The notes under the pieces: model-generated
What the model was told of the DNA's origin: nothing
Database searches by the model: none
The model's input: only the letters and a program-made list of their open reading frames with translations
Translations under genes and position numbers: made by a program
Source: a virus
Lineage: Duplodnaviria; Heunggongvirae; Uroviricota; Caudoviricetes
Virus record (IMG/VR): IMGVR_UViG_3300015174_000024
Strand: one strand, 5' to 3'
Length of the DNA stretch: 15,100 nt
In this document: piece by piece, positions 1 through 15,100 of the stretch
How positions within the stretch are numbered: position 1 is the stretch's first letter
Layout of the letters: the number at the start of each line of letters is the position of its first letter

Positions 1-165
1 ATGGCAAAGCCGATCATCACGCTCAATGGCCTAAAAATCGTCATTATGTTGGGAATGCTGGTCATTATTCTCTGCGGTATCCGTTTTGCCGCCGAGATCA
101 TCGTGCCGTTTATTCTCGCATTATTTATTGCTGTTATATATAACTTATTTCGCATAACACATTGA
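1..165 (+). pseudogene. tqsA: 5' fragment of AI-2 exporter gene tqsA (ydgG); first ~46 codons intact, then the frame diverges at about nt 138 and stops at 163-165
   Basis: Translation [46 protein letters not shown] matches my memory of the E. coli TqsA N-terminus; the following codons (YNLFRITH, stop) do not, and AT-rich element-like DNA follows. Identification is from memory, not a search. Confidence 0.5.
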
Positions 166-250
166 TTTAATTAAATAATTAACACCGCAAAAAGTGCCAA
201 AAATCGCAAAATGACTACACCAGTGACTACACCGTTCGGTGCACTGTATG

Positions 251-281
251 AAACAACGTGGAACAAATAGACACAAGAAAT
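251..281. repeat. 10-bp-phased direct repeats AACAACgtgg / GAACAAAtag / CACAAGaaat, preceded by TGACTACACC x2 (212-233) and phased A-tracts (189-211)
   Basis: Read directly in the sequence. The same AACAACGTGGAACAA core recurs at 7715-7729 and a related phased array at 13790-13836. Confidence 0.6.
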
Positions 282-863
282 ATACAGGCGGATCATCTTT
301 CCAGGGGGAAGCACACCAATTCATGAGGGGCGTTAATGTCGATATGGGGATCCCCACCTACCGGAATTTTTTTCCGGTTAAACGTTAATCAGGCTGGTGG
401 GCTTTACCTGTTCGGTAGGTGTTATGATTATCGTAATACCTTTCCCCCAATGGGGTAAAAGCATCAACCGTAACGAAAGTCGTTATGGTTGCCACTGATA
501 CCCCAAATTTGGGTATCACGAGTAAGCCCCAAAATCTGGGTGTTACTCTTACTACCCAAACTACGGGTAGTTTCCGTAGTTTCATGGTCGAGTTGCAGAT
601 CTGCAACTCCCCCATTAACCACAGGCGAATTTCCGCCTTCGGTCATTCCTTAATCATCTGCGTAATCATAATGATTATTCAGCAAGCGCAATTTTGCGCT
701 TTGCTTAAAGTTCAGCGAGTTACCGCGCAGACTTCCTCAAATTGAGGTTTCCGAAAATATCAGCGGGTTAGCGATTAAGCTGACCATTAATTAAACTGCG
801 AAAATGTCGTAGTTGTGAGGGGTGTAGCCAACCCATTTTTGGGCCGTCGGGAATATCAACCAG

Positions 864-1145
864 TTACCGCCGCAACCGCTCCGGCTTCTTCCAGTGGTAC
901 GTTATTTTCTCCTTCTCCCGATACATCTCCACGCGGCGACGGTAGGCCAGCAACTCAAGAACTCTGGTTCGTATGTTGCGCATATCCACGCCATTAAGTT
1001 CTATACCATCACGGCGCATCACCTCAGCAACAACACGCGCATAGTTTTCGGCTGTCACGCTGTCCGGCTGCGTGGCCTGTTCGTCAGCCTGCTGGCTGAT
1101 TCCGGCAACGCGGCGGATTAATCCCGTTATTTCGGCTTCTGTCAT
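864..1145 (-). CDS. hypothetical protein, 93 aa, last gene of the packaging operon
   Basis: ATG at 1145 preceded by GAGGT Shine-Dalgarno, 13 nt downstream of the terL stop; no family recognised. Confidence 0.5.
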   Translation of the reverse strand: MTEAEITGLIRRVAGISQQADEQATQPDSVTAENYARVVAEVMRRDGIELNGVDMRNIRTRVLELLAYRRRVEMYREKEKITYHWKKPERLRR

Positions 1146-1158
1146 GCTGCTGACCTCA

Positions 1159-2820
1159 TTACACCCCGCTAAATTCTTCCAGTTTCTGGCGGTGGCTGTC
1201 GCTTATATCAAAAGCAAAATCCTCATGCTCTGCCTGGAATGTACCAAACGCCATCAGCGCCGCCACGCTCGGGTCTATCTTGTTCGGTGATTTTTTCTTG
1301 TTCGGCTTGATATTGGCGTTCGCGTCACTCTGCATCACGACGTTACTCATCGACCAGGACAACACCGGATCGCCACGATGCACAATCACCCTGCGGTTAA
1401 CAAAAACTTCGAACGATTTCGCCGCCGGACTGAATCTGAGGTAGGTTTGCGGGAACGGCTCCACCTCAAAACCTGCCCCCTGTAATTGCGTTCTGAGATG
1501 CGTGGCGTTCCACGTATCAAAGCCCACCAGCCTGATATTAAATTTCTCCGCGTCCTGCATGATGTCATCTCTGATCCGGTCGTAATCAATGCAGTCGCCA
1601 GGCGTTGTGCGTATCCAGCCTGCTTTAGCCCACTGACGATAGATGGCGCGGTTTTTATTGGCGGGGTTCTGTAGCTGAAATTCCGGCAGATAGTGACGGG
1701 AAACCAGCATAATGGTTTTACCGACCGGAAAGGCATAGCACACGCTGGAAATATCGCTGGTTGATGATAAGTCCAGCCCCGCGTAACACTCCTGGCCGTG
1801 TAAATCTTCCTCCGTGAACGTTCCGGCACACTCAGCCCATGCGCCGTTACCCATCCACGGGGTAGCCCCCTGGCACCAGATATTAAATCGCTTTGTCATC
1901 ATCTCCACCCACTGCGACGGAATACCCCGCGCTTTCTGGATGGTTGAGGCCAGTTTTTCACGATCGACGGAAACATCAATATTAGGGTTCGCCTTTATCC
2001 ACATCGCCGGATCATCAACCTCGTTTTCGTCGTCCAGTTCGTAAATCAGTACAAAAATTGAATCGTTAACCTCTTCGCCGTCCAGGATCTGGCAGCAATA
2101 ATCATAGTGCTGCTTACAGGCTGAAACGACGTTGCTGCCTGATGTGGTAATGGCAAATAACAGCCCTTCGGGACGTGCGCCCATCCCCAGCTCAAGCGCG
2201 GAATAAACGCCGTTATCGGGGTGCAAGTGGTATTCGTCCACGATGGAAAGGCTGGGGTTTGTTCCCTCGATGGTTGCCGCTTTTGCTGCCAGCGGCTTTA
2301 ACAGGCTGTTGCTTTTCGGGTGTATCACCTTATGCGCCTGAATATTCACCCGCCTGCGTAACGGTCGGGATAAAAGGCACATCTGACGCGCATCATCAAA
2401 GACGATCCGCGCCTGGTCACGGCTCACCGCTGCGGTGTAGATATCCTGCTGACCGTTCTCCATAATCAGAAACCAGTTAGCCAGAATCGCGGCGGTCGTG
2501 GATTTCGCATTTTTGCGCGGCACTTCGATAAAGGCGCTCGTGTATTTGCGCCGTCCGGTGGCCTTAACCTTAAAGCCGAGGATGCACGCAAAGGCGAACT
2601 GCTGCCACGGCTCCAGCTCAATGGGTCTGCCACGCATCGGTCCTTTTACGTGCGGGCACACCCTGGAAAAGGCAATAAACCGCTCCACAACCTCACGATC
2701 GAACGTGTAAAGGGGGCTTTTAAGGTCCGAAAAGTACCGTTTAACGGCCTGTTTCAGCCGTTTACAGGCCGGAATTTTGCCCGTTTTTACGTCTTCTGCG
2801 TACTTATTCCAGGCGGTCAA
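1159..2820 (-). CDS. terL: terminase large subunit
   Basis: 553 aa; Walker A-like PRKNAKSTT and IVDEYH Walker B-like motif followed by a nuclease-like C-terminal half. Start at 2820 is TTG with a GAGGA SD 5 nt upstream; first in-frame ATG is about 60 codons in. Overlaps the terS 3' end by 17 nt. Confidence 0.9.
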   Translation of the reverse strand: MTAWNKYAEDVKTGKIPACKRLKQAVKRYFSDLKSPLYTFDREVVERFIAFSRVCPHVKGPMRGRPIELEPWQQFAFACILGFKVKATGRRKYTSAFIEVPRKNAKSTTAAILANWFLIMENGQQDIYTAAVSRDQARIVFDDARQMCLLSRPLRRRVNIQAHKVIHPKSNSLLKPLAAKAATIEGTNPSLSIVDEYHLHPDNGVYSALELGMGARPEGLLFAITTSGSNVVSACKQHYDYCCQILDGEEVNDSIFVLIYELDDENEVDDPAMWIKANPNIDVSVDREKLASTIQKARGIPSQWVEMMTKRFNIWCQGATPWMGNGAWAECAGTFTEEDLHGQECYAGLDLSSTSDISSVCYAFPVGKTIMLVSRHYLPEFQLQNPANKNRAIYRQWAKAGWIRTTPGDCIDYDRIRDDIMQDAEKFNIRLVGFDTWNATHLRTQLQGAGFEVEPFPQTYLRFSPAAKSFEVFVNRRVIVHRGDPVLSWSMSNVVMQSDANANIKPNKKKSPNKIDPSVAALMAFGTFQAEHEDFAFDISDSHRQKLEEFSGV

Positions 2821-3160
2821 GCTCGTCCTCTTCTTCTGTTTCCGGTGGGTTTTTACGGCGGCTTATCGGGTCAAAACCGAGCAAGGAGGCCATTTTTATC
2901 ATCACCCTTTCAGCGTCTGATTTCGCGCTTAATGCGGGGTTTCTGCTCTCGCCGCCCTGACTGTTAACAATGCTGAACCCGCGCGCCGCAAGGTCTGCGA
3001 CGGCTTTCCGGTACATGGAGTAGTTGACACAATACAGTTCCAGATTGCTCCAGTCGGCGGGGGTCAGGTCTCCCCGTTCCGCAAGCTGCCGCGATTTTTC
3101 CCGCCACTGCTTCACGGCGATGTCATCCAGGTAGGCGGGGGCTTTCGGTGGTCTTGCCAT
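2804..3160 (-). CDS. terS: terminase small subunit (P27-family-like)
   Basis: 118 aa; LELYC..Y..Y motif and acidic C-terminus typical of P27-type small terminases; sits immediately upstream of and overlapping terL. Confidence 0.75.
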   Translation of the reverse strand: MARPPKAPAYLDDIAVKQWREKSRQLAERGDLTPADWSNLELYCVNYSMYRKAVADLAARGFSIVNSQGGESRNPALSAKSDAERVMIKMASLLGFDPISRRKNPPETEEEDELDRLE

Positions 3161-3448
3161 GCTTATTTTTCGTCAGATTATTTTTCAAAAAATTCCCGTG
3201 CATAAAAATTTGAGGAGGCGTTCGGTGCCCGGCGGGGTCGGGTTTGTCCTGAAAACGCCCCCCACCCCGTCATACAGCCTCATCAGCGATTGCGGAAACA
3301 TTCCATAACCTCGCGGTCACGGTCGGTTAATCGCTTCGCTGTGATGCGTTCTGCGCGTCCTGACGCTTTATCTTTATGCCCTGTTTCCTGTGTCTTCCAT
3401 GCGTCACGCTGCCTTATAAGTCCACGGATAAGGCGGTTTTGTTCCCGC

Positions 3449-3889
3449 TCATTCATCAGCGTCATACATCCAGTTATTGCGGTTAGCGGCCCGTTCTTCC
3501 TCTTCACGAAATCCACCTGCGGCACGCTTGCTTTTTGTTGCCGGATCAAGCCATTTCGTTTTCTGGTTATGACACGCCTGGCACAATGGTTGATGGTTCC
3601 ATTCGGGCCAGAAGAGAACATCATCACCGCCATTAATCGGGATAATGTGATCCACCACCACGGCGGGCGTATATATCCCCTTCTCAAGGCATCGCACGCA
3701 TAACGGGTTTTTACTCAGATACATGGCGCGGTATTTGTCCCACTGTCTGGAATATCCACGCGCGCGGCGGTGTCCTCGTCTGGCATCCTCTGCACGCCAT
3801 GCCGCCCGCCTGTGCTCCTCACACTTGCCGGATTTAACGCGCCTGTTACAGCCTGGTTCTGTGCATCGTCTTAATGGTTGCCACGGCAT
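3449..3889 (-). CDS. HNH endonuclease (packaging-associated)
   Basis: 146 aa; Cys-rich N-terminus, DHIIP...N...H motif and paired Cys (CQACHN); start overlaps the connector stop (TGATG). Confidence 0.85.
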   Translation of the reverse strand: MPWQPLRRCTEPGCNRRVKSGKCEEHRRAAWRAEDARRGHRRARGYSRQWDKYRAMYLSKNPLCVRCLEKGIYTPAVVVDHIIPINGGDDVLFWPEWNHQPLCQACHNQKTKWLDPATKSKRAAGGFREEEERAANRNNWMYDADE

Positions 3890-4185
3890 CAGTACACCCC
3901 CACATCACGGTAAGCCGTCCAGAGTGCGCCTATCGTCATGGGTACGCGTGTTTTTGCGTTATCCGCGACAATCTGGCGATTTTCATACAGGTGAGCGATA
4001 AACATCATGCAGCCAATCTTTATGGCTGGCGTGAACTCCAGCCCGTCATCAAAGCGCCTGCCTATGTGTATCTGGCACGCCTCAAGCGATGCGGCAATGT
4101 ATCCGCTGATTAACTGGTCTTCATCGTCGCCATCGATGCGGCAATGGAGTTTCACTTCTTCCAGGGTGATAAGTTCTTCTGTCAT
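3889..4185 (-). CDS. head-tail connector protein (gp6-like)
   Basis: 98 aa; LITLEEVKLHCRIDGDDEDQLI motif typical of gp6-like connector family; ATGA overlap with upstream gene. Confidence 0.7.
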   Translation of the reverse strand: MTEELITLEEVKLHCRIDGDDEDQLISGYIAASLEACQIHIGRRFDDGLEFTPAIKIGCMMFIAHLYENRQIVADNAKTRVPMTIGALWTAYRDVGVY

Positions 4186-4520
4186 TTTTCCGCGCCCTCA
4201 CGACAAAGAATTTCAAGGCGTGTCCTGGCGGCATCCGGCAGCGGCTGCCCGATGATATTCAGTACACGCCCCGCCAGCGGCCCCGTACTGACCTTTATCC
4301 GGCTGGTGGCGTTGATGTCCTTCCGGTACCGTATCCAGATCCTTACGGTACCAATCGCCAGCTCTGCGCCCGATGAAATGGCCTCCTTGCTGCTGACCAT
4401 GTTCACGCTTGCCCAGAGTGTGTGACCGTCCTCCCACGTTTCGAGTATTTCGCCGGTTATATCCCTGGTCTGTTTCAGGGTCTGAATCGTTATCCTGTCA
4501 CGCAGTCGCCCTATGTTCAT
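4182..4520 (-). CDS. head closure / head-tail adaptor protein
   Basis: Start chosen at ATG 4520 (MNIGRLRDRITIQ...), which forms an ATGA overlap with the portal stop; the ORF-track upstream extension to 4562 lies inside portal. About 112 aa, family-typical N-terminus. Confidence 0.7.
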   Translation of the reverse strand: MNIGRLRDRITIQTLKQTRDITGEILETWEDGHTLWASVNMVSSKEAISSGAELAIGTVRIWIRYRKDINATSRIKVSTGPLAGRVLNIIGQPLPDAARTRLEILCREGAEK

Positions 4521-5728
4521 TCCGGTTTTTCTCCCTCGCTGATTTTTACTTCCTGTTTCCATGCCTGGCTGAACTCATCACCACCATCACGCGGTGACAG
4601 ACCTTCACGTTCGCGGGCTTCGTTCGGACACATAACGCCGGATTTGATGCCGCGCTCATAGGTGGCAAAGCGTTCGCCAGGTGTGGCCCGTAACAGGTCC
4701 GCGCTGTCAAACTCCACCTGATACCGGATACCAGGTACAGGCGAGGCCACCAGCAGGGCGTTTTTTATCTGCTGCTCAAAGTTCGCCAGCCACGGGCGCA
4801 TCGTCATGGTGAGAAATGCGCGGCTTGCCTCGCTGAAATTGCTGTAGGTGCTGTTGCTGTATTCCTGCAAAAAAATCGGCGAGACGTTGAACATTCGGGC
4901 GATGTCTTCAATGGTGAAGCGACGGGAGGCCAGCCATTCAGCATCCTGATTACTCATGCCCAGCTGCTGATAGCTCATACCCCCTTCAAGGATGGGCGTT
5001 TTTCCGGCGTTTCTGGCCCCTTTGTAGCGTTCCAGTGCGGCTAATGCCTGTTTGCCCTTCACGCCGTCCAGCCATTCGCCTGACGTGATAACCCCTGCCG
5101 CCATCATGCCATCACGCATCACGCTCGCGCCGTGGCGTTGTTGGGCCAGCCCAAGCCCCAGCGATTCGCGGCAGATGGTTACAGGTGAGCGCCCCATAAA
5201 GCCGTCATCCGTGGAGTAACGAAGGTGAAGTACTTCCCACGGTAAATAGTTGCGGGTGTTTCCGGTGTAGGCGTCAGTGATGCAGTAGCGCCAGTTGTGT
5301 TCGCCTGTCTGCTCCACGTTCACCGACTGCGGCGGGTAAGGATGTAAAGCCGCCGGAAAACCATCACGCCCCCACTGAATCACCGCATAAGCATTACCGT
5401 TTAACAGGCAGTGGCGGATCATCATTCGCTTAAACTGGTAGGGGGTTTGCCATGCGTTCGGGCGCTCGTTGAGGATGTGATCGACCGGATGAGAATCAAG
5501 CCACTCGCGGGCCTCCTTCCCCTTCTCATTGCGTACCAGGTACAGGTAACACGGCATGGTAGCCACCGCCTCAGAGATGACCGTCACGGCGTTCATGACG
5601 GCGGGCAGTGATTCCGCTGTCCCCGATGATACGTACTCACCCGCCCCCGTGTTCGATGTGCCAGCCAGCGCCATAAATTCATCCAGCGTCATGCTGCGCT
5701 GCTCTTTTTTTCTTCTGAAAGGCCACAT
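4517..5728 (-). CDS. portal protein (HK97 family)
   Basis: 403 aa; size, position between protease and adaptors, GGGGG SD 6 nt upstream of ATG 5728. Confidence 0.85.
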   Translation of the reverse strand: MWPFRRKKEQRSMTLDEFMALAGTSNTGAGEYVSSGTAESLPAVMNAVTVISEAVATMPCYLYLVRNEKGKEAREWLDSHPVDHILNERPNAWQTPYQFKRMMIRHCLLNGNAYAVIQWGRDGFPAALHPYPPQSVNVEQTGEHNWRYCITDAYTGNTRNYLPWEVLHLRYSTDDGFMGRSPVTICRESLGLGLAQQRHGASVMRDGMMAAGVITSGEWLDGVKGKQALAALERYKGARNAGKTPILEGGMSYQQLGMSNQDAEWLASRRFTIEDIARMFNVSPIFLQEYSNSTYSNFSEASRAFLTMTMRPWLANFEQQIKNALLVASPVPGIRYQVEFDSADLLRATPGERFATYERGIKSGVMCPNEAREREGLSPRDGGDEFSQAWKQEVKISEGEKPE

Positions 5729-5729: not shown

Positions 5730-6287
5730 TCACACCCCCGCTAAATCCACCCACCAGCGGCGATTATCCGCACGCGGCATTTTTTCGGGGTGCTGCTCAT
5801 ACAGGGAACGGCGGGCCAGCTCCACGCCGGAATCGGGGTAAGCCGGTACCGATGTAACGGTAATTTCGTACAGTTCCGCCACCAGCACGGTGCGCACGCA
5901 TGGATCTGTTGTGGTATCCCATACATCCTTACGGGAGCGAAAGCCAAAGCTCATCCCCGAGATGTCCCCACGCTTAACCAGTTCGATAACGTCGCGCCCT
6001 GTACTGGTATCCGGTGGGGTCAGTTCAAAGCGTAACCCTGTTTCGTCCTCTTCCAGTTTCAGCGTGCCGGAACGGGTGCGCCCCAGTAACATGCTGTGGT
6101 CATGCTCATACAGGCCTCGAACGTCATTACCCGCCGCAAGCCACTCAGTAAACGCCCCCCGCTGGAATTTTTCGTAAAACTCCCCCCATAGCAGTTCTGA
6201 AAGCTTATCCCAGCGAACAACGTAGCCCGTCAGCGTACCGGCTCCGCTGGTAGTGATTTCCGATGACCGGATTTCCATACTCTTCAT
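5730..6287 (-). CDS. prohead maturation protease (HK97 family)
   Basis: About 185 aa; GYVVRWDK and HDHSMLLGRT motifs. Start placed at ATG 6287 (GGTGA SD); ORF is open to ATG 6302, which lacks an SD. Confidence 0.8.
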   Translation of the reverse strand: MKSMEIRSSEITTSGAGTLTGYVVRWDKLSELLWGEFYEKFQRGAFTEWLAAGNDVRGLYEHDHSMLLGRTRSGTLKLEEDETGLRFELTPPDTSTGRDVIELVKRGDISGMSFGFRSRKDVWDTTTDPCVRTVLVAELYEITVTSVPAYPDSGVELARRSLYEQHPEKMPRADNRRWWVDLAGV

Positions 6288-6302
6288 AATTTTTTCACCC
6301 AT

Positions 6303-7740: not shown

Positions 7741-7754
7741 TAATTTACAAAACA

Positions 7755-7780
7755 TGACAAAAAGCCGGATTGCTCCGGCT
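7755..7780 (-). terminator. rho-independent terminator after the PerC-like gene
   Basis: Minus strand AGCCGGA-gcaa-TCCGGCT followed by TTTTTGT, 7 nt after the stop codon. Confidence 0.55.
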
Positions 7781-7786
7781 GTGTGA

Positions 7787-8059
7787 TTATCTGTCCTGGT
7801 AATTTCGCCATATTTCATTACCAGCACCATCCATACCCATTTCGGCATAAGTGCGATCGACCGCCTTTTTCAGGTCTCCGTAGTTATCCGGCGGCTCCGG
7901 TGGCCTCTGTGCCTTCCTGGAACATTCCAGCCGTCGCATCGTGATGTGATGCCGTTCCTTGTCTGTCTCCACCAGTTGCATGACTTCACCCCATCGCGCC
8001 GACGCTCTCCGGTAAAAGCCTTTCGCCTCCAGTTCTTCCGCTATGCGGTCATGTACCAT
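7787..8059 (-). CDS. PerC-family transcriptional regulator (Pch-like)
   Basis: About 90 aa; N-terminal AEELEAKGFYRRASARW resembles the PerC/Pch motif as I recall it. ATG 8059 has a GAGGGG SD; the ORF track starts at GTG 8068. Confidence 0.5.
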   Translation of the reverse strand: MVHDRIAEELEAKGFYRRASARWGEVMQLVETDKERHHITMRRLECSRKAQRPPEPPDNYGDLKKAVDRTYAEMGMDGAGNEIWRNYQDR

Positions 8060-8071
8060 CGTCCCCACCCC

Positions 8072-8482
8072 TCAGAACGGAATATCATCACCGTAAGGGT
8101 CATCGCCTCCCGCTGGTGGCTGATTACCCTGTGTGCCTGTGGTCTTGCGTCGGCTCCCACCAGGACGTGCCGCACGGGCACTGATTACGCTGTCTGCAAT
8201 AACCTGATAACCCTGCCGCGTTTCCCCGTTCTGTCCGGTCCACTGGCTGACCTGCATCGTGCCGGATACGCTGGCAACGTCGCCTTTTTGATGTTTAGCC
8301 AGGAAGTCGGCCTGCTTACCAAATGCGATGACCGATAGCCATAACGTCGCCTGTCCATCCTGTGCCTGGCTGCATGGCAGCGATACCGCCATACGCGCCA
8401 GCGTCATCGGTGTACCCTTGCTGGTCTGTTTTACCTGCGGGTCGTCCACCAGCCGCCCGTAAGCTGCTATCTGTGCTGTCAT
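8072..8482 (-). CDS. ssb: single-stranded DNA-binding protein
   Basis: 136 aa; OB-fold-like core (WLSVIAFGK), Gly/Pro-rich linker and the diagnostic acidic C-terminus ending DDIPF; ATGA overlap with the upstream gene. Confidence 0.8.
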   Translation of the reverse strand: MTAQIAAYGRLVDDPQVKQTSKGTPMTLARMAVSLPCSQAQDGQATLWLSVIAFGKQADFLAKHQKGDVASVSGTMQVSQWTGQNGETRQGYQVIADSVISARAARPGGSRRKTTGTQGNQPPAGGDDPYGDDIPF

Positions 8483-8805: not shown

Positions 8806-9032
8806 TGTCTACCTTATCTACCTTAGTGGCCCTCATACCAGTAATGGCGCGGCTTTCAGCGGGGTAGAGTGCTTTTATCCACTATCTACCCCGTGTCTAC
8901 CTCCCTGTCTGATTCAGGTAAAATCAGGTAGAGAGGGTAGATAGTGGGTAGACAGTAAAAAAAGGTTATCTACCTAACTTAATGCACTGAATTAAATGTA
9001 TTTTTCTTTACTCAGGTAGACAGGGTAGACAG
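8806..9032. repeat. iteron array (about 11 copies of GGTAGAnA / TnTCTACC in both orientations) with an AT-rich stretch; candidate replication origin
   Basis: Octamers at 8806, 8815, 8863 (partial), 8884, 8894, 8927, 8937, 8948, 8967, 9015, 9024; AT-rich segment 8975-9012; lies immediately downstream of the primase gene. Confidence 0.55.
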
Positions 9033-9045: not shown

Positions 9046-10800
9046 TTATAAAAACGCGTCGCACTCGTCTGTTGTTATTGCGTTAGTCTGCGTTACTCCC
9101 TTAACTTTCCGCGTAATATATTCATGTCCGTAAACTTTCGCGGCTGGCTTCATAGCCTTGCCAAAGTCATTTACGTTTAGCGGTTTGCTCCTGCCTGCGT
9201 ACGCCATAAACGCCAGATAGACGCGGTAAAGGCTGTTTCTGGTCGTGTACTTCACTGAATCGCCACCGCCGCCCATCATCAGGCCGCGTGCTTCCTCCAG
9301 AAAATTCAGGAACTGGCAAAACTCAATAACCGGATCCGTCTGTTGCTTTATTGCCAGAGCTTCATCACCGTCACGCTGTTCCAGTAGTAAAGCCCGTGCC
9401 TTCTCAGGGTCGGTAAAGTTCGCCAGCAATCGGCGGATAATGACAGGGATTTCAGCCGCGATCTTTTCCGGTAGCTCCCTGTCTTTTTCGGCCTCACTGA
9501 CGATATTGTCGAAACGGAAAATCACGCGACGACGTGCCACACCTCCGGCCCGTTCGGTGAATATCATCGGGTTATTGTTGGTCGCCAGCACCACCGCCCT
9601 GATTACCGCCGTGAAACGCTTTTCGTATTTCGGGTTAATTTCCACGGGGTCACCGCCCGTGATTTTCTTGATGCCCGTTCCTTCGCCTGTATATTTCGGC
9701 TGGTCAGCCAGGACGATAAGACGACTCCCGACAACCTGCGCACGTCCACCAGCATCATCAAGCGATGTCATTTCAGCGCTTACCGTGTTCTGTTTCCCTG
9801 CCAGAAGGCTGGCTATGTGTGTGAATGTACTTTTACCGCTCCCGCCGTCTCCGGTGGCCTCAATAAACATCTGCCAGTCGTACCGGTTCGCCATAATCAT
9901 GTACAGCGCGGCACATATACGCATCATCTTGCGCGGGTCTTTTCCGGCTGCGTGCTCAAGCCATTTATGAAAGTTTGGCGCGTTATCGCGGATGTTCTCC
10001 CCTGGTGCTGGTGGCGTGTACTCAATGCCGTTGTGCGTGGTGATCCAGTTCTCCGGCGTGTGCGGGGAAAATTCCCCCGTTTTCAGGTCAAGCGCACCAT
10101 TGGCGAACGGCAACAAATCGCCGGACGGCTCGCCCATTGGTTCGGCAATAACTTTTAACGCTTCCACGGCGTTATTGATTACGCGCTTGCTGAAAGTGGC
10201 CCTGTGCTCTGAATAGATCGCCACCATTTCGCGGCTAAGTTCCATTGTGCTGACCGGACACCATACCCCGCCGCGCCATACGTGAACGATTTCACTTTCA
10301 GGATGTACGCAAACGCCATCAAAGCGATCGGCAAGCAGCTGCGCGCGCTCACTGTCCGCCATCTGCGAAAGTTGCGCCTTTTGCTTTACCGGAAGCTCAA
10401 TGACCAGACCATCAGAAAGATTCTGGCGCTCACGGGCCAGATATTCGCGCCAGTTCTCCACCTTCTGACCGTGCATACCATCAGGGTAAAAATTTGCATC
10501 CTGTACGCCTGCCGCCGCCAGCTTCTGACCAATCCCCTTTATCATTACTGGCGCAAGATATCCGGCCCTGAATATGCGCACGGATTCTCTGCCTTCCGGC
10601 ACAATTTGCAGCTTATCCAGTTCGGATAACTGCTGCTCCCCAAGCCACACAGGAGGCTCATTATCTCCGGCCATACGCGCGTCATGTTCCTGCCATTGTT
10701 TTGCGTGTGACCAGGCATCACTACCCGCAAAAATAATGACTTCTGTTTCTTTGTGTTTTATGCCGCGTGACTGCTGTTTTACGTTCGGTGCCAGTTTCAT
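9046..10800 (-). CDS. primase/helicase replication protein (P4-alpha-like, Pri-Rep)
   Basis: 584 aa; central Walker A GDGGSGKST and a D5-like NTPase region, with an N-terminal primase-like domain; ATGA overlap with the upstream small ORF. Confidence 0.85.
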   Translation of the reverse strand: MKLAPNVKQQSRGIKHKETEVIIFAGSDAWSHAKQWQEHDARMAGDNEPPVWLGEQQLSELDKLQIVPEGRESVRIFRAGYLAPVMIKGIGQKLAAAGVQDANFYPDGMHGQKVENWREYLARERQNLSDGLVIELPVKQKAQLSQMADSERAQLLADRFDGVCVHPESEIVHVWRGGVWCPVSTMELSREMVAIYSEHRATFSKRVINNAVEALKVIAEPMGEPSGDLLPFANGALDLKTGEFSPHTPENWITTHNGIEYTPPAPGENIRDNAPNFHKWLEHAAGKDPRKMMRICAALYMIMANRYDWQMFIEATGDGGSGKSTFTHIASLLAGKQNTVSAEMTSLDDAGGRAQVVGSRLIVLADQPKYTGEGTGIKKITGGDPVEINPKYEKRFTAVIRAVVLATNNNPMIFTERAGGVARRRVIFRFDNIVSEAEKDRELPEKIAAEIPVIIRRLLANFTDPEKARALLLEQRDGDEALAIKQQTDPVIEFCQFLNFLEEARGLMMGGGGDSVKYTTRNSLYRVYLAFMAYAGRSKPLNVNDFGKAMKPAAKVYGHEYITRKVKGVTQTNAITTDECDAFL

Positions 10801-11096
10801 TTTTTACCCCTGAATCCGTTAATCATGGTTTTCAGCTTCTGGATGTTTGCCCGTGCCCTGGCGTTGCTGGTGGACACGTTATGCGGCGCGGTCTGTACCA
10901 GAGAAAAATCACGCCGGAACTGATAAACAGGCATCACGCAATCATATTCGTAACCTTCACGGCGGTAGGTTACGCGCCGTTCTTCCACGCCCTTAATCAT
11001 TACCGTGCCGCCGTACTGGTCGCGGTAAATATCGCCGCGCGTAAATTTAGGGTGAGTGTTGCCACTGGCAGTTAAGCCAGAATATTTAAGTTTCAT
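10797..11096 (-). CDS. hypothetical protein, 99 aa
   Basis: GGAGA SD 9 nt upstream of the ATG; translationally coupled to primase. Confidence 0.5.
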   Translation of the reverse strand: MKLKYSGLTASGNTHPKFTRGDIYRDQYGGTVMIKGVEERRVTYRREGYEYDCVMPVYQFRRDFSLVQTAPHNVSTSNARARANIQKLKTMINGFRGKK

Positions 11097-11101
11097 TATT
11101 T

Positions 11102-11335
11102 TTATTCTCCGGTGTGCTGTTCTTTATATCTGTCGTGCAATAGATCTATTTCTTGCAGTTCCATTATTACAGGCTCAAGAAGCGTTATTAATGCCGTGGC
11201 AATTCTTGATTTTTGTTTGTCGCGTTCATTGTCGCCAAGTGTTTCAAGCCATATGCGCAATATTTCCAGCATGTTTTCACTGTGAGAAAGTGCAAGAAAT
11301 GCGCGGTCTATTGTTTCGTGGTAAATATCACGCAT
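11102..11335 (-). CDS. hypothetical protein, 77 aa
   Basis: GAGGA SD; overlaps the upstream gene stop. Confidence 0.5.
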   Translation of the reverse strand: MRDIYHETIDRAFLALSHSENMLEILRIWLETLGDNERDKQKSRIATALITLLEPVIMELQEIDLLHDRYKEQHTGE

Positions 11336-11561
11336 GGCTTACATCCTCAGGAAATTTTCTTCTATAACGCGCCTCTGCCACATATTCCGCATAATCGGCG
11401 GCGATATTCAGTACATCAAGCCCCGTTGATTTATATTCTCTCGTGGAAAGTAAGAAAAAAGCCGCTCTAATAAGTTCTGGCATTGACGAAAGCGCATCAG
11501 CCGCATCATCAGGAACGCCGGAAAATTCCTGTTTCAGGGAATTAAAACGATCATCACGCAT
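11328..11561 (-). CDS. hypothetical protein, 77 aa
   Basis: GGGGGG SD 5 nt upstream; overlaps neighbours. Confidence 0.5.
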   Translation of the reverse strand: MRDDRFNSLKQEFSGVPDDAADALSSMPELIRAAFFLLSTREYKSTGLDVLNIAADYAEYVAEARYRRKFPEDVSHA

Positions 11562-11919
11562 GTTTACCCCCCTGAATGACCTGATAACCGCAACTGGTCA
11601 GCAACTCGATAAATTCCGGCAGTGTGCCGAAACAGCAATCATCACGCAGCCGTTCACAGGATACCTCGACGCCGTTTTCGTAGTGACTCACCATACATCC
11701 GGTAAAATGCAGATCATCATCGTGATGGCTCGTTGACGGCTTAATCAGTCGCGCACGTTCCGCCAGTTCCAGCAATGCTTCAACGCTTCCGGCAATTGCA
11801 CCATCCGGCAGGTGATAATTACGCACTATGCGCCCGTTCTCCACATTGACCAGCAACTGCCCGGTAAATTTCTCATCAAACTGAATGCTGTTAAGGTCAG
11901 AAATTGACAGATTATGCAT
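11554..11919 (-). CDS. hypothetical protein, about 121 aa
   Basis: Start placed at ATG 11919 (MHNLSI...), which has an AGGAGGTG SD and overlaps the upstream stop; the ORF-track start at 11937 lacks one. Confidence 0.5.
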   Translation of the reverse strand: MHNLSISDLNSIQFDEKFTGQLLVNVENGRIVRNYHLPDGAIAGSVEALLELAERARLIKPSTSHHDDDLHFTGCMVSHYENGVEVSCERLRDDCCFGTLPEFIELLTSCGYQVIQGGKHA

Positions 11920-12136
11920 GGTGCACCTCCTGCACATCAGCCATGATAATTTTTCCGGCCTTATCCAGTGCCTGATCGGCTTTTAGCTGCACAAATGCTA
12001 AATAATGGAAGATGCATTCTGATTCTCTGGCTGCGTGTTTATGCGCCCTGTCAGCAATAACAGAAATATCAATAAGCGCGTGCATCAGCGTAGTGAGCGC
12101 GGCGGCGGCTGCGTCCGGTGTGGTTTTATTGCACAT
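11912..12136 (-). CDS. hypothetical protein, about 74 aa
   Basis: Start placed at ATG 12136 (MCNKTT...) with an AGGAGG SD; the ORF-track start at 12178 is further upstream. Confidence 0.5.
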   Translation of the reverse strand: MCNKTTPDAAAAALTTLMHALIDISVIADRAHKHAARESECIFHYLAFVQLKADQALDKAGKIIMADVQEVHHA

Positions 12137-12326
12137 GGCACACCTCCTGACGAATACGGGCGGCGAATACAGCAACACAACCGGACGGGCAACGGCTACG
12201 CGCTTCGCGTTCCGTCCAGGCGGTTACGTGGATGATTTGAGATTCTCCGGCACTTAGTGCCAGAAAACGCCACACAAAGGCAGTTTGTGTGTGCGCCAGA
12301 CGTGGGGTATGCTGTGTTCCAGCCAT
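12126..12326 (-). CDS. hypothetical protein, 66 aa, first gene of the leftward operon
   Basis: ATG 12326 preceded by AGGAG 8 nt upstream; it is the in-frame C-terminal part of an implausible 378-aa ORF-track call. Confidence 0.45.
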   Translation of the reverse strand: MAGTQHTPRLAHTQTAFVWRFLALSAGESQIIHVTAWTEREARSRCPSGCVAVFAARIRQEVCHVQ

Positions 12327-12491: not shown

Positions 12492-12513
12492 TCTTTTGTT
12501 TAGGAGAATGCAC

Positions 12514-12819
12514 ATGGCAAAAAACACTATCAACGACAAATCAAAACAGATTTCAATTCGTATCCCACATGATGCTTTTGATGGCATGGAATCCGTAAAA
12601 CTGGACGGCGAAAGCAACGCCGGATTCATAGTAACCGCCATGCGCGGGGAGATCGCCCGCCGCCAGGCAGAAGGAAGCAGTGAAAATCCTCTGATTTCTT
12701 CTCTCGATGCATTGGCGCAAGTGGAAAAAATTGGTATTAAAGCTACGGAAGAACTCGGGCAACTTATCGCCATCGCTCGTGAAGAACTACAGCGCCGCAA
12801 GGCCAAAGAATCAGAATAA
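12514..12819 (+). CDS. ribbon-helix-helix-like DNA-binding protein (candidate island repressor)
   Basis: AGGAG at 12502-12506, ATG at 12514; N-terminus KQISIRIPHDAFDGME...GFIVTAMRGEIARRQ fits a beta-strand/helix/helix pattern; divergently placed from the replication operon. Confidence 0.5.
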   Translation: MAKNTINDKSKQISIRIPHDAFDGMESVKLDGESNAGFIVTAMRGEIARRQAEGSSENPLISSLDALAQVEKIGIKATEELGQLIAIAREELQRRKAKESE

Positions 12820-13174: not shown

Positions 13175-13319
13175 TGCCTGAAAAACCCCAATTTTGTGGT
13201 TTTCCAGTCTCACCAGGGCGAACGAATCCCCGCCCACGTTCTGGCGTATATTCAATCTTCATGGTTATAGCTCTGTGTTCAGATGATTGATGTGTGGCGG
13301 CTGCGTGCCGCCAGCGTGA

Positions 13320-13508
13320 TTAATGAACTGCCTTGCAGCTATCCTTCCAGGCCAGAACCTCGGATAAAGACCAGCCAACGGAACGACCGCTAAGTTTACG
13401 ACGTGATGGGAATTGTCCGGCCTTTTCCAGGCGGTAGCGGCATGAGCGGCTAAGGCCTGTTAGCTTTTCGCATTCTTTTTCACGTATAAACCGATCAGTG
13501 CTTAACAC
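13320..13508 (-). CDS. alpA: AlpA-family (Xis/Vis-like) regulator/excisionase
   Basis: 62 aa; LTGLSRS..YRL..G.FP....L....VGW...EV..W pattern; GTG start with AAGGGGG SD; located next to int. Confidence 0.8.
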   Translation of the reverse strand: MLSTDRFIREKECEKLTGLSRSCRYRLEKAGQFPSRRKLSGRSVGWSLSEVLAWKDSCKAVH

Positions 13509-13789
13509 TATTGCCCCCTTTCGTTTCTTAAAGAGTTATTTCGTGTTCTATTGCGTTGGGATGTGTCTGATTGTGTCAGGATGATTCAGAGTTGGCAAAT
13601 GTTGAGGTCGCATGGTTTACAGAAAGAGGAATAATCAGGATAAAATCATTTAAATTCATGTTAATACAAAGGCATAAAATATTGTTTCATGCCTTTTTTC
13701 TCGCTATTTAAAGAGTGATTCGCTAGTGTATAAAAAACCAGTAACACATTAAAAATCAGCTACTTATAAATCCGTACACTTTTTCGCCT

Positions 13790-13836
13790 CTTGTTCGTAG
13801 TTGTTCCGCATTGTTGCTCATTGTTGCACGTTGTAT
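13790..13836. repeat. five 10-bp-phased repeats (plus strand TTGTTcgtag/TTGTTccgca/TTGTTgctca/TTGTTgcacg/TTGTAtctgt; minus strand GAACAA-type) just 3' of int
   Basis: Read directly; related to the GAACAA arrays at 251-281 and 7714-7740 but in opposite orientation. Confidence 0.6.
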
Positions 13837-13882
13837 CTGTTCGCATATCCAGCATGCGCATACTGAAAAAACACGAAAAAAA

Positions 13883-15100
13883 TTATTTTCTTCTGGCTAC
13901 TGGTAGCGTGGTTACGTTTTCATGTGTTCCCGCCAGTATCCCTAACCGCTCCGTCCACATATCCAGCGCATTGCGTTTAGCATCCAGATAACGGGAATGA
14001 TTATAAACTCGCTGCATTCCTGGCATCTGGTGGCCTGTAAGCTGCTCCACGACATGCGGATCAACGCCTAAATCGTTCAGCATGGTTGTAAAGGTGCGCC
14101 GGATGTCATGCAGTGACCAGTGAGGATGATTAAGCCTCCTGTGCGCTAATCTTCCATACTGCGATACGCTGGCCTCCTGTTTCACTTCCCCCAGCAATAA
14201 GCCCGTGTGCCTGTTCTGCTCCACCAGCTGCGTGACGAACGGCAGGATCGCTTCCGGTATGGGCCGGAATATTGCGACCTTCGTTTTGCTGTGCTCCTTC
14301 GGAACGGTCCATAGCATTTCCGTAAAATCCCACTCCCCGATCTCCGATAACCTCAGTTCTACCGTTCTGGCTCCGAAGACAATCAGGAGGCGGATTAACG
14401 CGACGTAGTAAGGGGAGAATATTTTTTTGTCCAGTGCCTGCAATAATTCGCCAAGTTCTTTGTTACTTAAGACACGTTCGCTTATATCCGGTTTTTTCCC
14501 AACGTCCGCCACGTTCAGATCGTCCAGAACGTTGCTGATTGCATAGCGCCGCCTACGGCAGAACTTAAGCGCCTGTTTGCACGCCTGTAGCACGAATCCG
14601 GCAGTAACAGGCGTTCGCTTTGCCACCTGGTCAAAACAGGCCAGCCAGTGCCGTAGCTCGCATTTATCCAGCGGCATAGCACCAATCTGCTGTATTACGT
14701 GATTATTAAGTCGCCTTTTCAGGGCGATATAATCCACGCGGTTTTCCTTTACGTAATACTCAAGCCAGTAGGTGAGCGCATCGCCAACCGTTACGGGCTT
14801 TAACGCTTCCTGTACGGTGTAATTCATCTCATGACGTGGATTTTTCCCCTCAGCCAGCCATGTGCGACACTGTGCGGCTTTTTCCCTGGCTGCTTTCAGG
14901 CTCAGATCAGGATAACTTCCCAGCTTAATGCGTTCGGGTCGTGTCTCCCTTCCCGTTCCGGCCCTGTATGTGAAATACCAGGTCAATTTCCCTGATGTTA
15001 AATATTTCACGCTCAGGTTTCCGCCATCACTATAAAACGTGTTTTTCTCCGCTGGCTTACCATGAAGTTTCCTTAGCAAGGTATCGCTCAGTTTGTTCAT
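13883..15100 (-). CDS. int: tyrosine integrase, P4-like with N-terminal arm-binding domain
   Basis: 405 aa; HDIRRTF, LTGHQ and C-terminal VYNHSRY catalytic-Tyr motifs; the ATG is the last 3 nt of the window. Confidence 0.9.
   Translation of the reverse strand: MNKLSDTLLRKLHGKPAEKNTFYSDGGNLSVKYLTSGKLTWYFTYRAGTGRETRPERIKLGSYPDLSLKAAREKAAQCRTWLAEGKNPRHEMNYTVQEALKPVTVGDALTYWLEYYVKENRVDYIALKRRLNNHVIQQIGAMPLDKCELRHWLACFDQVAKRTPVTAGFVLQACKQALKFCRRRRYAISNVLDDLNVADVGKKPDISERVLSNKELGELLQALDKKIFSPYYVALIRLLIVFGARTVELRLSEIGEWDFTEMLWTVPKEHSKTKVAIFRPIPEAILPFVTQLVEQNRHTGLLLGEVKQEASVSQYGRLAHRRLNHPHWSLHDIRRTFTTMLNDLGVDPHVVEQLTGHQMPGMQRVYNHSRYLDAKRNALDMWTERLGILAGTHENVTTLPVARRK

What the first reader, a model, noticed from the sequence alone, without database searches (positions are those of the whole stretch)
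138..15100. Tail-less satellite that encodes its own complete capsid and packaging machinery (cf-PICI-like)
Between the tqsA junction and the integrase the element has a P4-type int, alpA and primase/helicase (satellite backbone) plus a full HK97-type head module: major capsid, prohead protease, portal, head closure, connector, HNH, terS and terL. No tail, tape-measure, baseplate, fibre, holin or endolysin gene was found in 15 kb. That combination matches the capsid-forming PICI class described in Enterobacteriaceae (established knowledge, from memory). Such elements package their own DNA into self-made small capsids and hijack only helper tails. The variant here additionally carries ssb and a PerC-like regulator.
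Basis: partly seen in the sequence, partly recalled or inferred. Interest (0 to 1): 0.75.

Follow-up and report, generated by a model that had tools for sequence, protein, structure and literature searches.

The report
Known capsid-forming phage satellite in tqsA
This is an ordinary, intact copy of an already described kind of phage satellite (a capsid-forming PICI, almost identical in its head-building genes to the published prototype EcCIEDL933) inserted in the E. coli gene tqsA.

Summary
Window 138-15100 is a ~15.2-kb island inserted in codon 46 of E. coli tqsA. The att core TGCTGTTAT lies at 129-137, and its second copy lies about 190 nt beyond the window end. The island has all 11 core components of a capsid-forming PICI: integrase, AlpA, P4-family primase, major capsid, prohead protease, portal, head closure/adaptor, connector, HNH, TerS and TerL. 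It has no tail, holin or lysis gene. It is not merely cf-PICI-like. Its capsid and packaging module is 97.4% identical in DNA (proteins 96-100%) to EcCIEDL933, the experimentally characterised prototype, and is under strong purifying selection (pN/pS 0.08). At least 137 of 5,426 complete E. coli genomes carry most of it. One claim is wrong: ssb and the PerC-like gene are not additions, because the prototype has both. The real differences are swapped modules: the att core and integrase N-terminus, the primase C-terminal part with its origin iterons, and the genes downstream of alpA. Novelty is therefore low. Side observations are 10-bp-phased AACAA arrays at four regulatory or att positions, an unexplained hairpin-rich 570-nt tract, and a plus-strand YlcI/YnfO gene.

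The parts
1..137 (+). 5' fragment of the host gene tqsA (AI-2 exporter), cut after codon 45/46 by the island
   Evidence: 100% identical to K-12 tqsA 1-137. Annotated as a truncated pseudogene in L001 and L005. tqsA is listed as a gene disrupted by integrative elements in PMC7192596 and PMC3603311.
129..137 (+). att core TGCTGTTAT (attL copy, in window orientation)
   Evidence: Shared by intact K-12 tqsA, by the left junction and by the right junction of L001 (6129-6137 and 21392-21400).
155..233 (.). att arm: an IHF-consensus-like site (155-167) and two tandem arm-type repeats GACTACACC (213-221, 225-233)
   Evidence: A 76-nt direct repeat of this arm lies at the other end of the island in L001, and motif coordinates come. 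EcCIEDL933 has the same layout with TTAACTACACC repeats. The functional assignment is inference.
252..276 (+). 10-bp-phased AACAA array (att-arm copy)
   Evidence: 9 matches against 1.5 expected in the window, clustered at four places.
290..863 (-). Gene-free, hairpin-dense tract after the packaging operon, with repeat units GCGGTAACT-N3-TGA (712-726, 856-870); function unknown
   Evidence: MFE z-score is -7.9 (minus strand) and -8.8 (plus strand), and the repeat units are. There was no Rfam, PHROG or PADLOC hit. The tract is partly conserved in EcCIEDL933.
864..1145 (-). 93-aa conserved hypothetical protein (phrog_1561)
   Evidence: It is 87% identical to the gene after terL in EcCIEDL933.
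1159..2820 (-). Large terminase TerL
   Evidence: TerL_ATPase plus TerL_nuclease. It is 98.7% identical to EcCIEDL933 TerL.
2804..3160 (-). Small terminase TerS (P27 / Terminase_4 family)
   Evidence: PF05119, 1.2e-23. It is 99.2% identical to the prototype.
3161..3282 (-). Candidate cos region: a G+C-rich stretch between orf60/HNH and terS
   Evidence: Inference only. It rests on the HK97-type arrangement of HNH, cos and terS and on the sequence read. It was not tested.
3283..3465 (-). 60-aa ORF; by position the counterpart of EcCIEDL933 'gene 1792'
   Evidence: 100% identical to the prototype ORF; phrog_3173. A mutant of gene 1792 was severely impaired in transfer. The gene numbering was deduced from capsid = 1786.
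3449..3889 (-). HNH endonuclease, packaging cofactor
   Evidence: PF01844, 1.8e-8. It is 99.3% identical to the prototype.
3889..4185 (-). Head-tail connector (gp6-like)
   Evidence: PF05135 and TIGR01560. It is 99% identical to the prototype.
4182..4520 (-). Head closure / head-tail adaptor protein
   Evidence: PF05521 and TIGR01563. It is 96.4% identical to the prototype.
4517..5728 (-). Portal protein
   Evidence: PF04860, 2.5e-90. It is 99.3% identical to the prototype.
5730..6302 (-). HK97-family prohead serine protease
   Evidence: PF04586, 7e-48. It is 97.4% identical to the prototype.
6342..7499 (-). HK97-fold major capsid protein, followed by a terminator-like hairpin at 6311-6332
   Evidence: PF05065, 1.5e-61. 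It differs from the EcCIEDL933 capsid protein at 3 of 385 residues, none of them in loop 227-248, and the S-x-G-x-x-AD cleavage motif is at residue 93.
7500..7786 (-). Control region of the capsid operon: terminator-like hairpin after perC (7763-7780), conserved TTTTGTAAATTAT, and three phased TTGTTC/GAACAA repeats (7715-7739)
   Evidence: The promoter or activator-site role is inference.
7787..8068 (-). PerC-family regulator
   Evidence: PF06069, 4.6e-43. It is 86.5% identical to the perC of EcCIEDL933.
8072..8482 (-). Single-strand DNA-binding protein
   Evidence: PF00436. It is 98.5% identical to the prototype SSB.
8806..9031 (.). Probable replication origin: 11 iterons TNTCTACC in both orientations around an A+T-rich core
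   Evidence: EcCIEDL933 has different iterons (TAACCCGCA) after its different primase. The origin function is inferred.
9046..10800 (-). P4-family primase/helicase (D5_N, DUF5906, Pox_D5)
   Evidence: TIGR01613 scores 109.1 bits, cutoff 108.7. Only the first 163 aa resemble the prototype's DUF927 protein.
10797..12326 (-). DUF4222 protein, four small conserved hypothetical ORFs, and an Icd-like ORF (12126-12326)
   Evidence: annotation of L001 and L005.
12514..12819 (+). YlcI/YnfO-family gene, the only plus-strand gene, lying antisense inside the 378-aa minus-strand ORF 12126-13262
   Evidence: NF041551, 4.1e-18; phrog_6522, 3.2e-57. AT skew flips to +0.256 at 12501-13000. In L001 the three pieces are separate genes.
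13320..13508 (-). AlpA activator
   Evidence: PF05930. It is 96.8% identical to EcCIEDL933 AlpA. alpA is essential for induction of the prototype.
13791..13835 (-). Five 10-bp-phased (A)ACAA repeats between int and alpA
   Evidence: They are conserved in EcCIEDL933. A role as AlpA auto-activation sites is inference, from PMC6092414.
13883..15100 (-). Tyrosine integrase with arm-binding domain; its annotated start lies 12 nt beyond the window end
   Evidence: It is 91.4% identical to EcCIEDL933 Int, and 20 of the 35 differences lie in residues 5-84. Annotation in L001.

Best explanation
The segment is an intact capsid-forming phage-inducible chromosomal island (cf-PICI) of the EcCIEDL933 lineage. 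It is integrated by its own tyrosine integrase into the 5' part of E. coli tqsA.

Expected life cycle, all steps inferred by homology to the prototype:
1. A helper phage switches on alpA. AlpA then activates its own promoter and the island's genes.
2. Int excises the island at the TGCTGTTAT core.
3. The P4-family primase/helicase, helped by the island's SSB, replicates it from the iteron origin at 8806-9031.
4. The capsid operon makes capsid protein, protease and portal, which assemble a small T=4 HK97-fold procapsid.
5. HNH, TerS and TerL cut the concatemer at the island's own cos site and fill the head with one ~15-kb genome.
6. The adaptor and connector close the head and dock it to siphovirus tails made by a helper or another phage. 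HK106-type tails are expected, because adaptor and connector are 96% and 99% identical to those of EcCIEDL933.
7. Cell lysis also depends on the phage.
For: Gene content:
- All 11 cf-PICI core components were found by profile HMMs.
- No tail, holin or lysis hit came from any ORF on either strand.

Boundaries:
- The island is flanked by K-12 core genes, and the two halves of tqsA carry a duplicated 9-bp core.
- The total length is about 15.16 kb; the prototype is 15.4-15.5 kb.

Identity to the prototype:
- DNA is 97.4% identical to EcCIEDL933 over window 852-7785, 93% over ssb-perC and 92.7% over int-alpA.
- Packaging proteins are 96-100% identical and of the same lengths.
- There are 136 synonymous against 37 non-synonymous differences, giving pN/pS 0.079.
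- The capsid cleavage motif and the size-determining loop are unchanged.

Function of the prototype, from the literature:
- Every packaging gene is needed for island transfer but not for phage transfer. Helper tail mutants abolish transfer. alpA is needed for induction.
- The capsid is T=4 and 47.5 nm across. Tail-less heads pick up free tails, and adaptor plus connector set tail compatibility.

Distribution:
- At least 80% of the window is present in 137 complete E. coli genomes.
- The same capsid gene (98%) occurs in Shigella flexneri, and relatives at 66-74% occur in Rosenbergiella, Citrobacter, Erwinia and Gilliamella.
- Only four weak partial matches were found among 50,697 phage records.
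Against: - Nothing in the sequence argues against membership.
- Activity in this particular host is untested. The helper is unknown, the first 12 nt of int and attR lie outside the window, and 35 residues of Int differ from the prototype.
- The cos site was not located experimentally.
- No complete E. coli genome searched matches the whole window as one piece. The best match covers 96%, so this exact mosaic has not itself been studied.
Confidence: 0.93

Rival explanations
1. It is a decayed remnant of an HK97-like prophage that lost its tail, lysis and immunity regions, leaving inert head genes next to an integrase.
For: The head and packaging genes are of HK97 type. E. coli genomes hold many defective prophages (for example L003).
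Against: - The island has precise att duplication and a constant ~15-kb size in many strains, and the same architecture in several genera.
- All packaging ORFs are full length with pN/pS 0.079.
- The backbone is the PICI type (int-alpA-primase, transcribed one way), with no cI/cro, Q or lysis remnants.
- It is near-identical to an element shown to be mobile.
Confidence: 0.03
2. It is a classical PICI or a P4-like satellite that depends on the helper's capsid proteins and only remodels them.
For: int, alpA and primase are of the type shared with classical E. coli PICIs and are distantly related to those of P4.
Against: - It encodes its own capsid protein, protease, portal, adaptor, connector and TerL. 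These are exclusion criteria for classical PICIs in SatelliteFinder.
- No Sid, Psu or Delta-type family was hit.
Confidence: 0.01
3. The island is sequence-intact but not mobile in its present host. It could lack a compatible inducer or tail donor, or have a defect in the unseen int start or attR, so that it persists mainly as a stable tqsA disruption carrying a PerC-family regulator.
For: - None of the 17 resident prophages of EDL933 is a good helper for the prototype.
- The window does not show attR or the first codons of int.
- Related copies show local decay downstream of alpA (pseudogene calls in L001 and L005).
Against: - The whole packaging module is under strong purifying selection.
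- The arm sites and core are conserved at both ends in near-identical loci.
- Modules have recently been exchanged among copies at the same site, which implies ongoing mobility.
Confidence: 0.12

Closest known systems
EcCIEDL933, the prototype cf-PICI of E. coli O157:H7 EDL933 (NZ_CP008957.1, about 1,680,100-1,695,600, between roxA and phoQ; Alqurainy et al. 2022/2023; He et al. 2025)
   Same: - Same gene order and size.
- The packaging module is 97.4% identical in DNA and 96-100% in protein.
- alpA 96.8%, SSB 98.5%, PerC 86.5% and Int 91.4% identical.
- Same arrangement of arm-type repeats and phased AACAA arrays.
   Different: - Different attB: inside tqsA with core TGCTGTTAT, against the roxA-phoQ intergenic site with core AAATATGTCC.
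- Arm repeats are GTGACTACACC against TTAACTACACC.
- The primase C-terminal two thirds (P4/D5 type against DUF927) and the origin iterons (TNTCTACC against TAACCCGCA) differ.
- The genes between alpA and DUF4222 differ.
- There are two rather than four GCGGTAACT repeat units after terL.
cf-PICI copies at the same tqsA site in other E. coli, e.g. strain SCU-204 (NZ_CP053251.2, L001) and strain Z1323HEC0108 (NZ_CP148374.1, L005)
   Same: - Same insertion point and att core.
- L001 is 99.93% identical over window 1-12147.
- L005 is 98.4% identical over 10715-15100, and 99.9% over 12100-13900.
   Different: - L001 has a different segment downstream of alpA.
- L005 has a RepA-type helicase instead of the P4-type primase.
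- The window is therefore a mosaic of modules seen in these copies.
Classical Gram-negative PICIs (EcCICFT073 type)
   Same: int-alpA-primase backbone transcribed in one direction, AlpA-dependent induction, and frequent carriage of PerC-family LEE activators.
   Different: Classical PICIs have no capsid, portal, connector or TerL genes. They are packaged in helper-made capsids through a helper-type cos site and Rpp.
Phage HK97 and HK97-like siphoviruses such as HK106 (the helper of the prototype)
   Same: HK97-fold capsid protein with protease-dependent maturation, and an HNH-TerS-TerL packaging system.
   Different: The island has no tail, lysis or lysogeny-control genes, and its gene order is capsid first and terminase last. 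The prototype forms T=4 rather than T=7 capsids, and its proteins do not cross-assemble with phage proteins.
Satellite phage P4
   Same: Integrase with an arm-binding domain, an AlpA/Vis-family regulator and a P4-family primase C-terminal domain.
   Different: P4 encodes no capsid, portal or terminase. It redirects P2 capsid assembly with Sid and uses the P2 cos site (established knowledge; one search gives the PICI-P4 comparison).

Membership tests
cf-PICI (capsid-forming PICI) | Integrase at one end, with att direct repeats bounding an island of roughly 10-16 kb | tested here: met
   Int at 13883-15100. The core TGCTGTTAT lies at 129-137, and its second copy lies 188-196 nt past the window end in near-identical loci. 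Length is about 15.16 kb. attR itself is not in the window.
cf-PICI (capsid-forming PICI) | AlpA-type (or MerR/Stl-type) regulator next to int | tested here: met
   PF05930, 1.9e-17. It is 96.8% identical to the alpA of EcCIEDL933.
cf-PICI (capsid-forming PICI) | Primase-replicase | tested here: met
   D5_N, DUF5906 and Pox_D5; TIGR01613 scores above its cutoff. An iteron cluster lies next to the gene.
cf-PICI (capsid-forming PICI) | Own morphogenesis genes: major capsid, prohead protease, portal | tested here: met
   PF05065, PF04586 and PF04860 at E-values of 1e-48 to 1e-90. All are full length and 97-99% identical to the prototype.
cf-PICI (capsid-forming PICI) | [quoted passage not shown] | tested here: met
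   PF05521/TIGR01563 and PF05135/TIGR01560.
cf-PICI (capsid-forming PICI) | Own packaging genes: HNH, TerS and TerL | tested here: met
   PF01844, PF05119, and PF03354 with PF20441.
cf-PICI (capsid-forming PICI) | No tail and no holin or lysis genes ('forbidden' components in SatelliteFinder) | tested here: met
   No such family was hit in Pfam, PHROGs, NCBIfam or PADLOC for any ORF of 50 aa or more. No transmembrane-type small ORF was found. In L001 and L005, host genes follow directly outside the att sites.
cf-PICI (capsid-forming PICI) | Proteobacterial gene order: int-alpA-replication, then capsid-protease-portal-connectors, then hnh-terS-terL, transcribed in one direction | tested here: met
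   ORF map with the annotations. It matches the description. The single exception is the small plus-strand YlcI/YnfO gene.
cf-PICI (capsid-forming PICI) | Functional hallmarks: helper-dependent induction through alpA, island-made small capsids that package only island DNA, and dependence on phage tails alone | not testable with these tools
   These are shown for EcCIEDL933. Here they are inferred from 96-100% protein identity.
Classical PICI | Lacks portal, connector, adaptor and TerL, and relies on helper capsid proteins | tested here: not met
   Portal, connector, adaptor and TerL are all present. These are exclusion markers for PICI.
P4-like satellite | Capsid-size and helper-control genes (sid, psu, delta, epsilon) and a helper-type cos site, with no structural genes of its own | tested here: not met
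   No ORF hit such families in Pfam or PHROGs. The island has its own structural genes. P2-type cos was not searched for.
Defective HK97-like or lambdoid prophage | Remnants of immunity, antitermination, lysis or tail modules, with decaying ORFs | tested here: not met
   No such remnants were found. pN/pS is 0.079 and ORF lengths are conserved.

The most novel reading that the evidence does not exclude
The 570-nt gene-free tract after the packaging operon (290-863) sits at a position where cf-PICIs are expected to carry immunity cargo. It is a chain of about ten hairpins with variable numbers of GCGGTAACT-N3-TGA repeat units, and part of it recurs at the end of an unrelated PICI. The most novel reading not excluded is that this tract is an undescribed functional non-coding module: an RNA-based accessory or defence function, or a cis-acting packaging or replication element shared by PICI families. 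A secondary possibility is that the phased AACAA arrays form one AlpA-type regulon linking excision, auto-activation and capsid expression.
Probability: 0.15. Interest if true: 0.45.

Novelty: already known. Interest (0 to 1): 0.15.

Why it matters
The finding adds little. It is another copy of a satellite family published in 2022-2025, and its head-building genes are practically those of the prototype. Three points have some use:

- **Modular exchange.** Within one lineage, the att core with the integrase N-terminus, the primase with its origin iterons, and the genes downstream of alpA have been swapped. The capsid module has stayed nearly invariant.
- **Host effect.** The island inactivates tqsA (AI-2 export). 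Others have already listed this as a candidate case of gene integrity regulated by an integrative element.
- **Regulation.** The phased AACAA arrays and the hairpin tract give concrete, testable candidates for the still unmapped AlpA binding sites and cis elements of Gram-negative (cf-)PICIs.

Tried and rejected
- **Rfam.** Both strands at E up to 0.1 gave no RNA family, so the Icd-like gene is not preceded by a recognisable C4-type RNA and the hairpin tract matches nothing curated.
- **PADLOC.** Ten unassigned ORFs gave no defence family.
- **Phage collection.** The whole island gave four weak partial hits only. One is a 16.5-kb 'induced prophage' record that shares only the terS-terL segment (13% of the query, 77.5% identity). 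The hairpin tract gave nothing.
- **Locating EcCIEDL933.** NC_002655.2 is not in the collection. A first coordinate guess landed on a lambdoid prophage. The second guess found the element.
- **Supplementary tables.** The tables of the cf-PICI paper that list its six attB sites are not held. I therefore could not check whether the tqsA site is among them. No paper in the library combines 'tqsA' and 'PICI'.
- **Regulon test in distant relatives.** I asked whether distant cf-PICIs (Rosenbergiella, Citrobacter, Erwinia, Gilliamella) carry their own phased motif both upstream of the capsid operon and elsewhere. The motif occurs only upstream of the capsid operon, or in Gilliamella next to the primase. 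The one-regulator, several-sites idea is therefore supported only within the EcCIEDL933 group.
- **Promoter and terminator scan.** Counts were at or below chance overall. I used only the two strong hairpins after perC and after the capsid gene.
- **Codon-position test for the antisense pair.** This cannot separate the 378-aa ORF from the YlcI gene, because their third codon positions coincide. I used AT skew, family hits and the layout in L001 instead.
- **Hairpin covariation.** The four-sequence alignment showed only one possible C-G to G-U double change, which is too little to call.

Full report
**1. What is in the window**

Almost all long ORFs lie on the minus strand, and no tRNA is present. 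Profile searches give a complete, gap-free map. Read in the direction of transcription, the genes are:

| Gene | Window coordinates |
|---|---|
| Tyrosine integrase with arm-binding domain | 15100-13883 |
| AlpA | 13508-13320 |
| Variable stretch ending in an Icd-like ORF | 13262-12126 |
| Four small conserved ORFs | 12136-11102 |
| DUF4222 protein | 11096-10797 |
| P4-family primase/helicase | 10800-9046 |
| 92-aa ORF | 8757-8479 |
| SSB | 8482-8072 |
| PerC-family regulator | 8068-7787 |
| HK97-fold major capsid protein | 7499-6342 |
| S78 prohead protease | 6302-5730 |
| Portal | 5728-4517 |
| Head closure/adaptor | 4520-4182 |
| gp6-like connector | 4185-3889 |
| HNH endonuclease | 3889-3449 |
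| 60-aa ORF | 3465-3283 |
| TerS | 3160-2804 |
| TerL | 2820-1159 |
| 93-aa ORF | 1145-864 |

No ORF of 50 aa or more, on either strand, hits a tail, tape-measure, baseplate, fibre, holin, endolysin or spanin family in Pfam, PHROGs, NCBIfam or PADLOC. None of the small unknown ORFs has a holin-like hydrophobic helix. The largest stretch without a gene is 719 nt, so there is no room for a hidden tail module.

**2. Boundaries**

- Window 1-137 is identical to the first 137 nt of K-12 tqsA.
- I aligned intact tqsA, the window's left end and the right end of a near-identical locus (L001, E. coli SCU-204). The host sequence is interrupted just after TGCTGTTAT (window 129-137), and the same 9 bp precede the rest of tqsA on the far side.
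- The window stops 12 nt short of the annotated integrase start. In L001 and L005 only a 60-aa ORF and about 190 nt separate int from the second core copy, and pntB/pntA follow as in K-12.
- The island is thus about 15.16 kb, with no further genes hidden beyond the window.
- tqsA is split at codon 46. Two comparative studies already list tqsA among genes disrupted by integrative elements (PMC3603311, PMC7192596).

**3. Relation to the known family**

The cf-PICI family was defined on EcCIEDL933 (10.1101/2022.09.08.507074). I located that element in the EDL933 chromosome between roxA and phoQ and compared it directly.

- The whole capsid and packaging module (window 852-7785) is 97.4% identical in DNA. 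ssb-perC is 93% identical and int-alpA 92.7%.
- Protein identities to the prototype:

| Protein | Identity to EcCIEDL933 |
|---|---|
| Major capsid | 99.2% |
| Prohead protease | 97.4% |
| Portal | 99.3% |
| Adaptor (head closure) | 96.4% |
| Connector | 99.0% |
| HNH | 99.3% |
| 60-aa ORF | 100% |
| TerS | 99.2% |
| TerL | 98.7% |

- All of these have unchanged lengths.
- Differences in this module are 136 synonymous against 37 non-synonymous, giving pN/pS 0.079. These are genes under selection, not relics.
- The three capsid substitutions avoid the 227-248 loop that He et al. propose sets the T=4 size. The S-x-G-x-x-AD maturation motif sits at residue 93, as in the prototype.
- The island has all 11 core components and none of the forbidden components used by SatelliteFinder for cfPICI, which makes it 'Type A' (PMC10085698).

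**4. What differs from the prototype**

EcCIEDL933 has both, at 98.5% and 86.5% identity, and PerC-type LEE activators are a known PICI cargo (PMC6092414). The real differences are module swaps:

- **Integration module.** The att core is TGCTGTTAT in tqsA, against AAATATGTCC between roxA and phoQ. The arm-type repeats are GTGACTACACC against TTAACTACACC. There are 35 Int substitutions, 20 of them in the N-terminal arm-binding region.
- **Replication module.** The primase beyond residue 163 is P4/D5 type here and DUF927 in the prototype. The adjacent iterons differ too: 11 copies of TNTCTACC at 8806-9031, against TAACCCGCA in the prototype.
- **Genes downstream of alpA**. He et al. also describe this as a variable region.

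Copies at the same tqsA site in other strains carry other combinations, for example a RepA-type helicase in L005. The window is 99.93% identical to L001 on the left and about 98-99.9% identical to L005 on the right. It is one mosaic among many.

**5. Distribution**

- 137 of 5,426 complete E. coli genomes carry at least 80% of the window.
- A Shigella flexneri genome has a 98%-identical capsid gene. Relatives at 66-74% occur in Rosenbergiella, Citrobacter, Erwinia and Gilliamella.
- The phage collection holds nothing similar beyond short 75-79% segments. This agrees with the published finding that these elements are distinct from phages.

**6. Mechanism**

Nothing here was tested experimentally. 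The mechanism is transferred from the prototype on the strength of near-identity.

Shown for EcCIEDL933:
- alpA is required for induction, and helper phages HK106 and HK446 induce the island.
- Every gene of the packaging module is needed for island transfer but not for phage transfer.
- Helper capsid mutants still give island particles, whereas helper tail mutants abolish transfer.
- Capsids are T=4, 47.5 nm across, and made of the cleaved island capsid protein.
- Tail-less heads are released and can join free tails.
- Adaptor and connector decide which tails fit.

Inferred for this copy: the same cycle, with HK106-type tail compatibility, an origin at 8806-9031, and a cos site probably in the G+C-rich 3161-3282 spacer between orf60/HNH and terS.

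**7. Rivals**

- **Decayed prophage.** This is contradicted by the precise att sites, the constant architecture across strains and genera, the PICI-type backbone and the purifying selection.
- **Classical PICI or P4-like satellite.** This is excluded by the presence of portal, connector, adaptor, TerL and capsid genes.
- **Intact but immobile in this host.** This cannot be excluded, because the host, its prophages, attR and the int start are not visible.

**8. Things noticed beyond the finding**

a. **Phased AACAA arrays.** A pentamer AACAA repeated at 10-bp phase occurs at four places: the att arm (252-276), the other att arm just beyond the window (L001 21283-21307), between int and alpA (13791-13835, five repeats), and upstream of the capsid operon (7715-7739). 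The last array follows a TTTTGTAAATTAT element that is conserved even in 66-74% relatives. The count is 9 matches against 1.5 expected, and 0 of 200 shuffles reach it. AlpA activates its own promoter and belongs to the Vis/excisionase-like family, so AlpA is the obvious candidate binder, but this is inference. In distant cf-PICIs a different phased motif is seen only upstream of the capsid operon.

b. **Hairpin tract.** The 570 nt after orf93 have no gene. They fold into about ten hairpins, with z-scores of -7.9 and -8.8. They hold repeat units GCGGTAACT-N3-TGA, the first of which includes the stop codon of orf93. There are two units here and four in EcCIEDL933. A 123-nt piece (492-614), absent from EcCIEDL933, recurs at the distal end of an unrelated PICI next to a tRNA-Ile gene. 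Its function is unknown.

c. **Plus-strand YlcI/YnfO gene.** The 378-aa ORF downstream of alpA is probably not one gene. A YlcI/YnfO-family gene lies antisense within it, with full-length family matches. AT skew reverses there. In L001 the three parts are separate genes. Its N-terminus looks ribbon-helix-helix-like, but the only support is a sub-threshold Pfam hit.

d. **Terminator-like hairpins.** Strong ones follow perC and the capsid gene.

**9. Verdict**

The finding is real and correctly interpreted, but it is a re-identification of a published satellite family, and specifically a mosaic allele of its prototype. Novelty is 'already known' and interest is low. The residual novelty lies only in the unexplained non-coding features.

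Noticed in passing
window 252-276 (+), 7715-7739 (+), 13791-13835 (-); L001 21283-21307: AACAA pentamers are repeated at 10-bp phase at both att arms, between int and alpA, and upstream of the capsid operon. The count is 9 matches against 1.5 expected. They are conserved in EcCIEDL933. They are candidate binding sites for one regulator, with AlpA the obvious candidate; this is inference.
   Followed up: partly
window 290-863: A gene-free tract after the packaging operon folds into about ten hairpins (MFE z about -8 on both strands). It contains GCGGTAACT-N3-TGA repeat units whose number varies between relatives: 2 here and 4 in EcCIEDL933. It gave no Rfam, PHROG, PADLOC or phage-database match. 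Function unknown.
   Followed up: partly
window 492-614; L018 6001-6123: A 123-nt piece of the hairpin tract is missing from EcCIEDL933. It is found at 93-95% identity at the distal end of a different satellite-like island (capsid-protease fusion type) next to a tRNA-Ile gene, again just after a 282-nt hypothetical gene.
   Followed up: partly
window 12514-12819 (+) inside ORF 12126-13262 (-): A YlcI/YnfO-family gene (NF041551; phrog_6522, full length) lies antisense inside the 378-aa ORF downstream of alpA, and AT skew reverses there. The long ORF is probably a chance fusion of an N-terminal ORF, the shadow of this gene, and an Icd-like ORF. The protein starts with a ribbon-helix-helix-like motif, but the only support is a sub-threshold Pfam hit.
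   Followed up: partly
window 8806-9031: Eleven TNTCTACC iterons in both orientations flank an A+T-rich core between the primase gene and orf92, making a probable origin. EcCIEDL933 has TAACCCGCA iterons after its different primase, so primase and origin were exchanged together.
   Followed up: partly
window 129-233 and 13883-15100; L004 11060-11345 and 26440-26640: The integrases of this island and EcCIEDL933 are 91% identical but use different attB sites. The attP arms are nearly the same, while the core (TGCTGTTAT against AAATATGTCC) and the arm repeats (GTGACTACACC against TTAACTACACC) differ. Twenty of the 35 Int substitutions are in residues 5-84.
   Followed up: partly
window 1-165: tqsA (AI-2 exporter) is cut at codon 46. 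The 5' fragment runs on into island sequence as a 54-aa ORF, so the gene is inactivated while the island is integrated and would be restored by precise excision.
   Followed up: no
window 6311-6332 and 7763-7780 (-): Strong terminator-like hairpins lie directly after the major capsid gene and directly after perC. The latter separates the replication/regulation genes from the capsid operon.
   Followed up: no
phage record LR881103.1 (hit H22): A 16.5-kb record deposited as 'Escherichia phage vB_KppS-Ant, induced prophage' shares only the terS-terL segment with the window (13% of the query, 77.5% identity). Its size suggests it may itself be a packaged cf-PICI rather than a phage.
   Followed up: no
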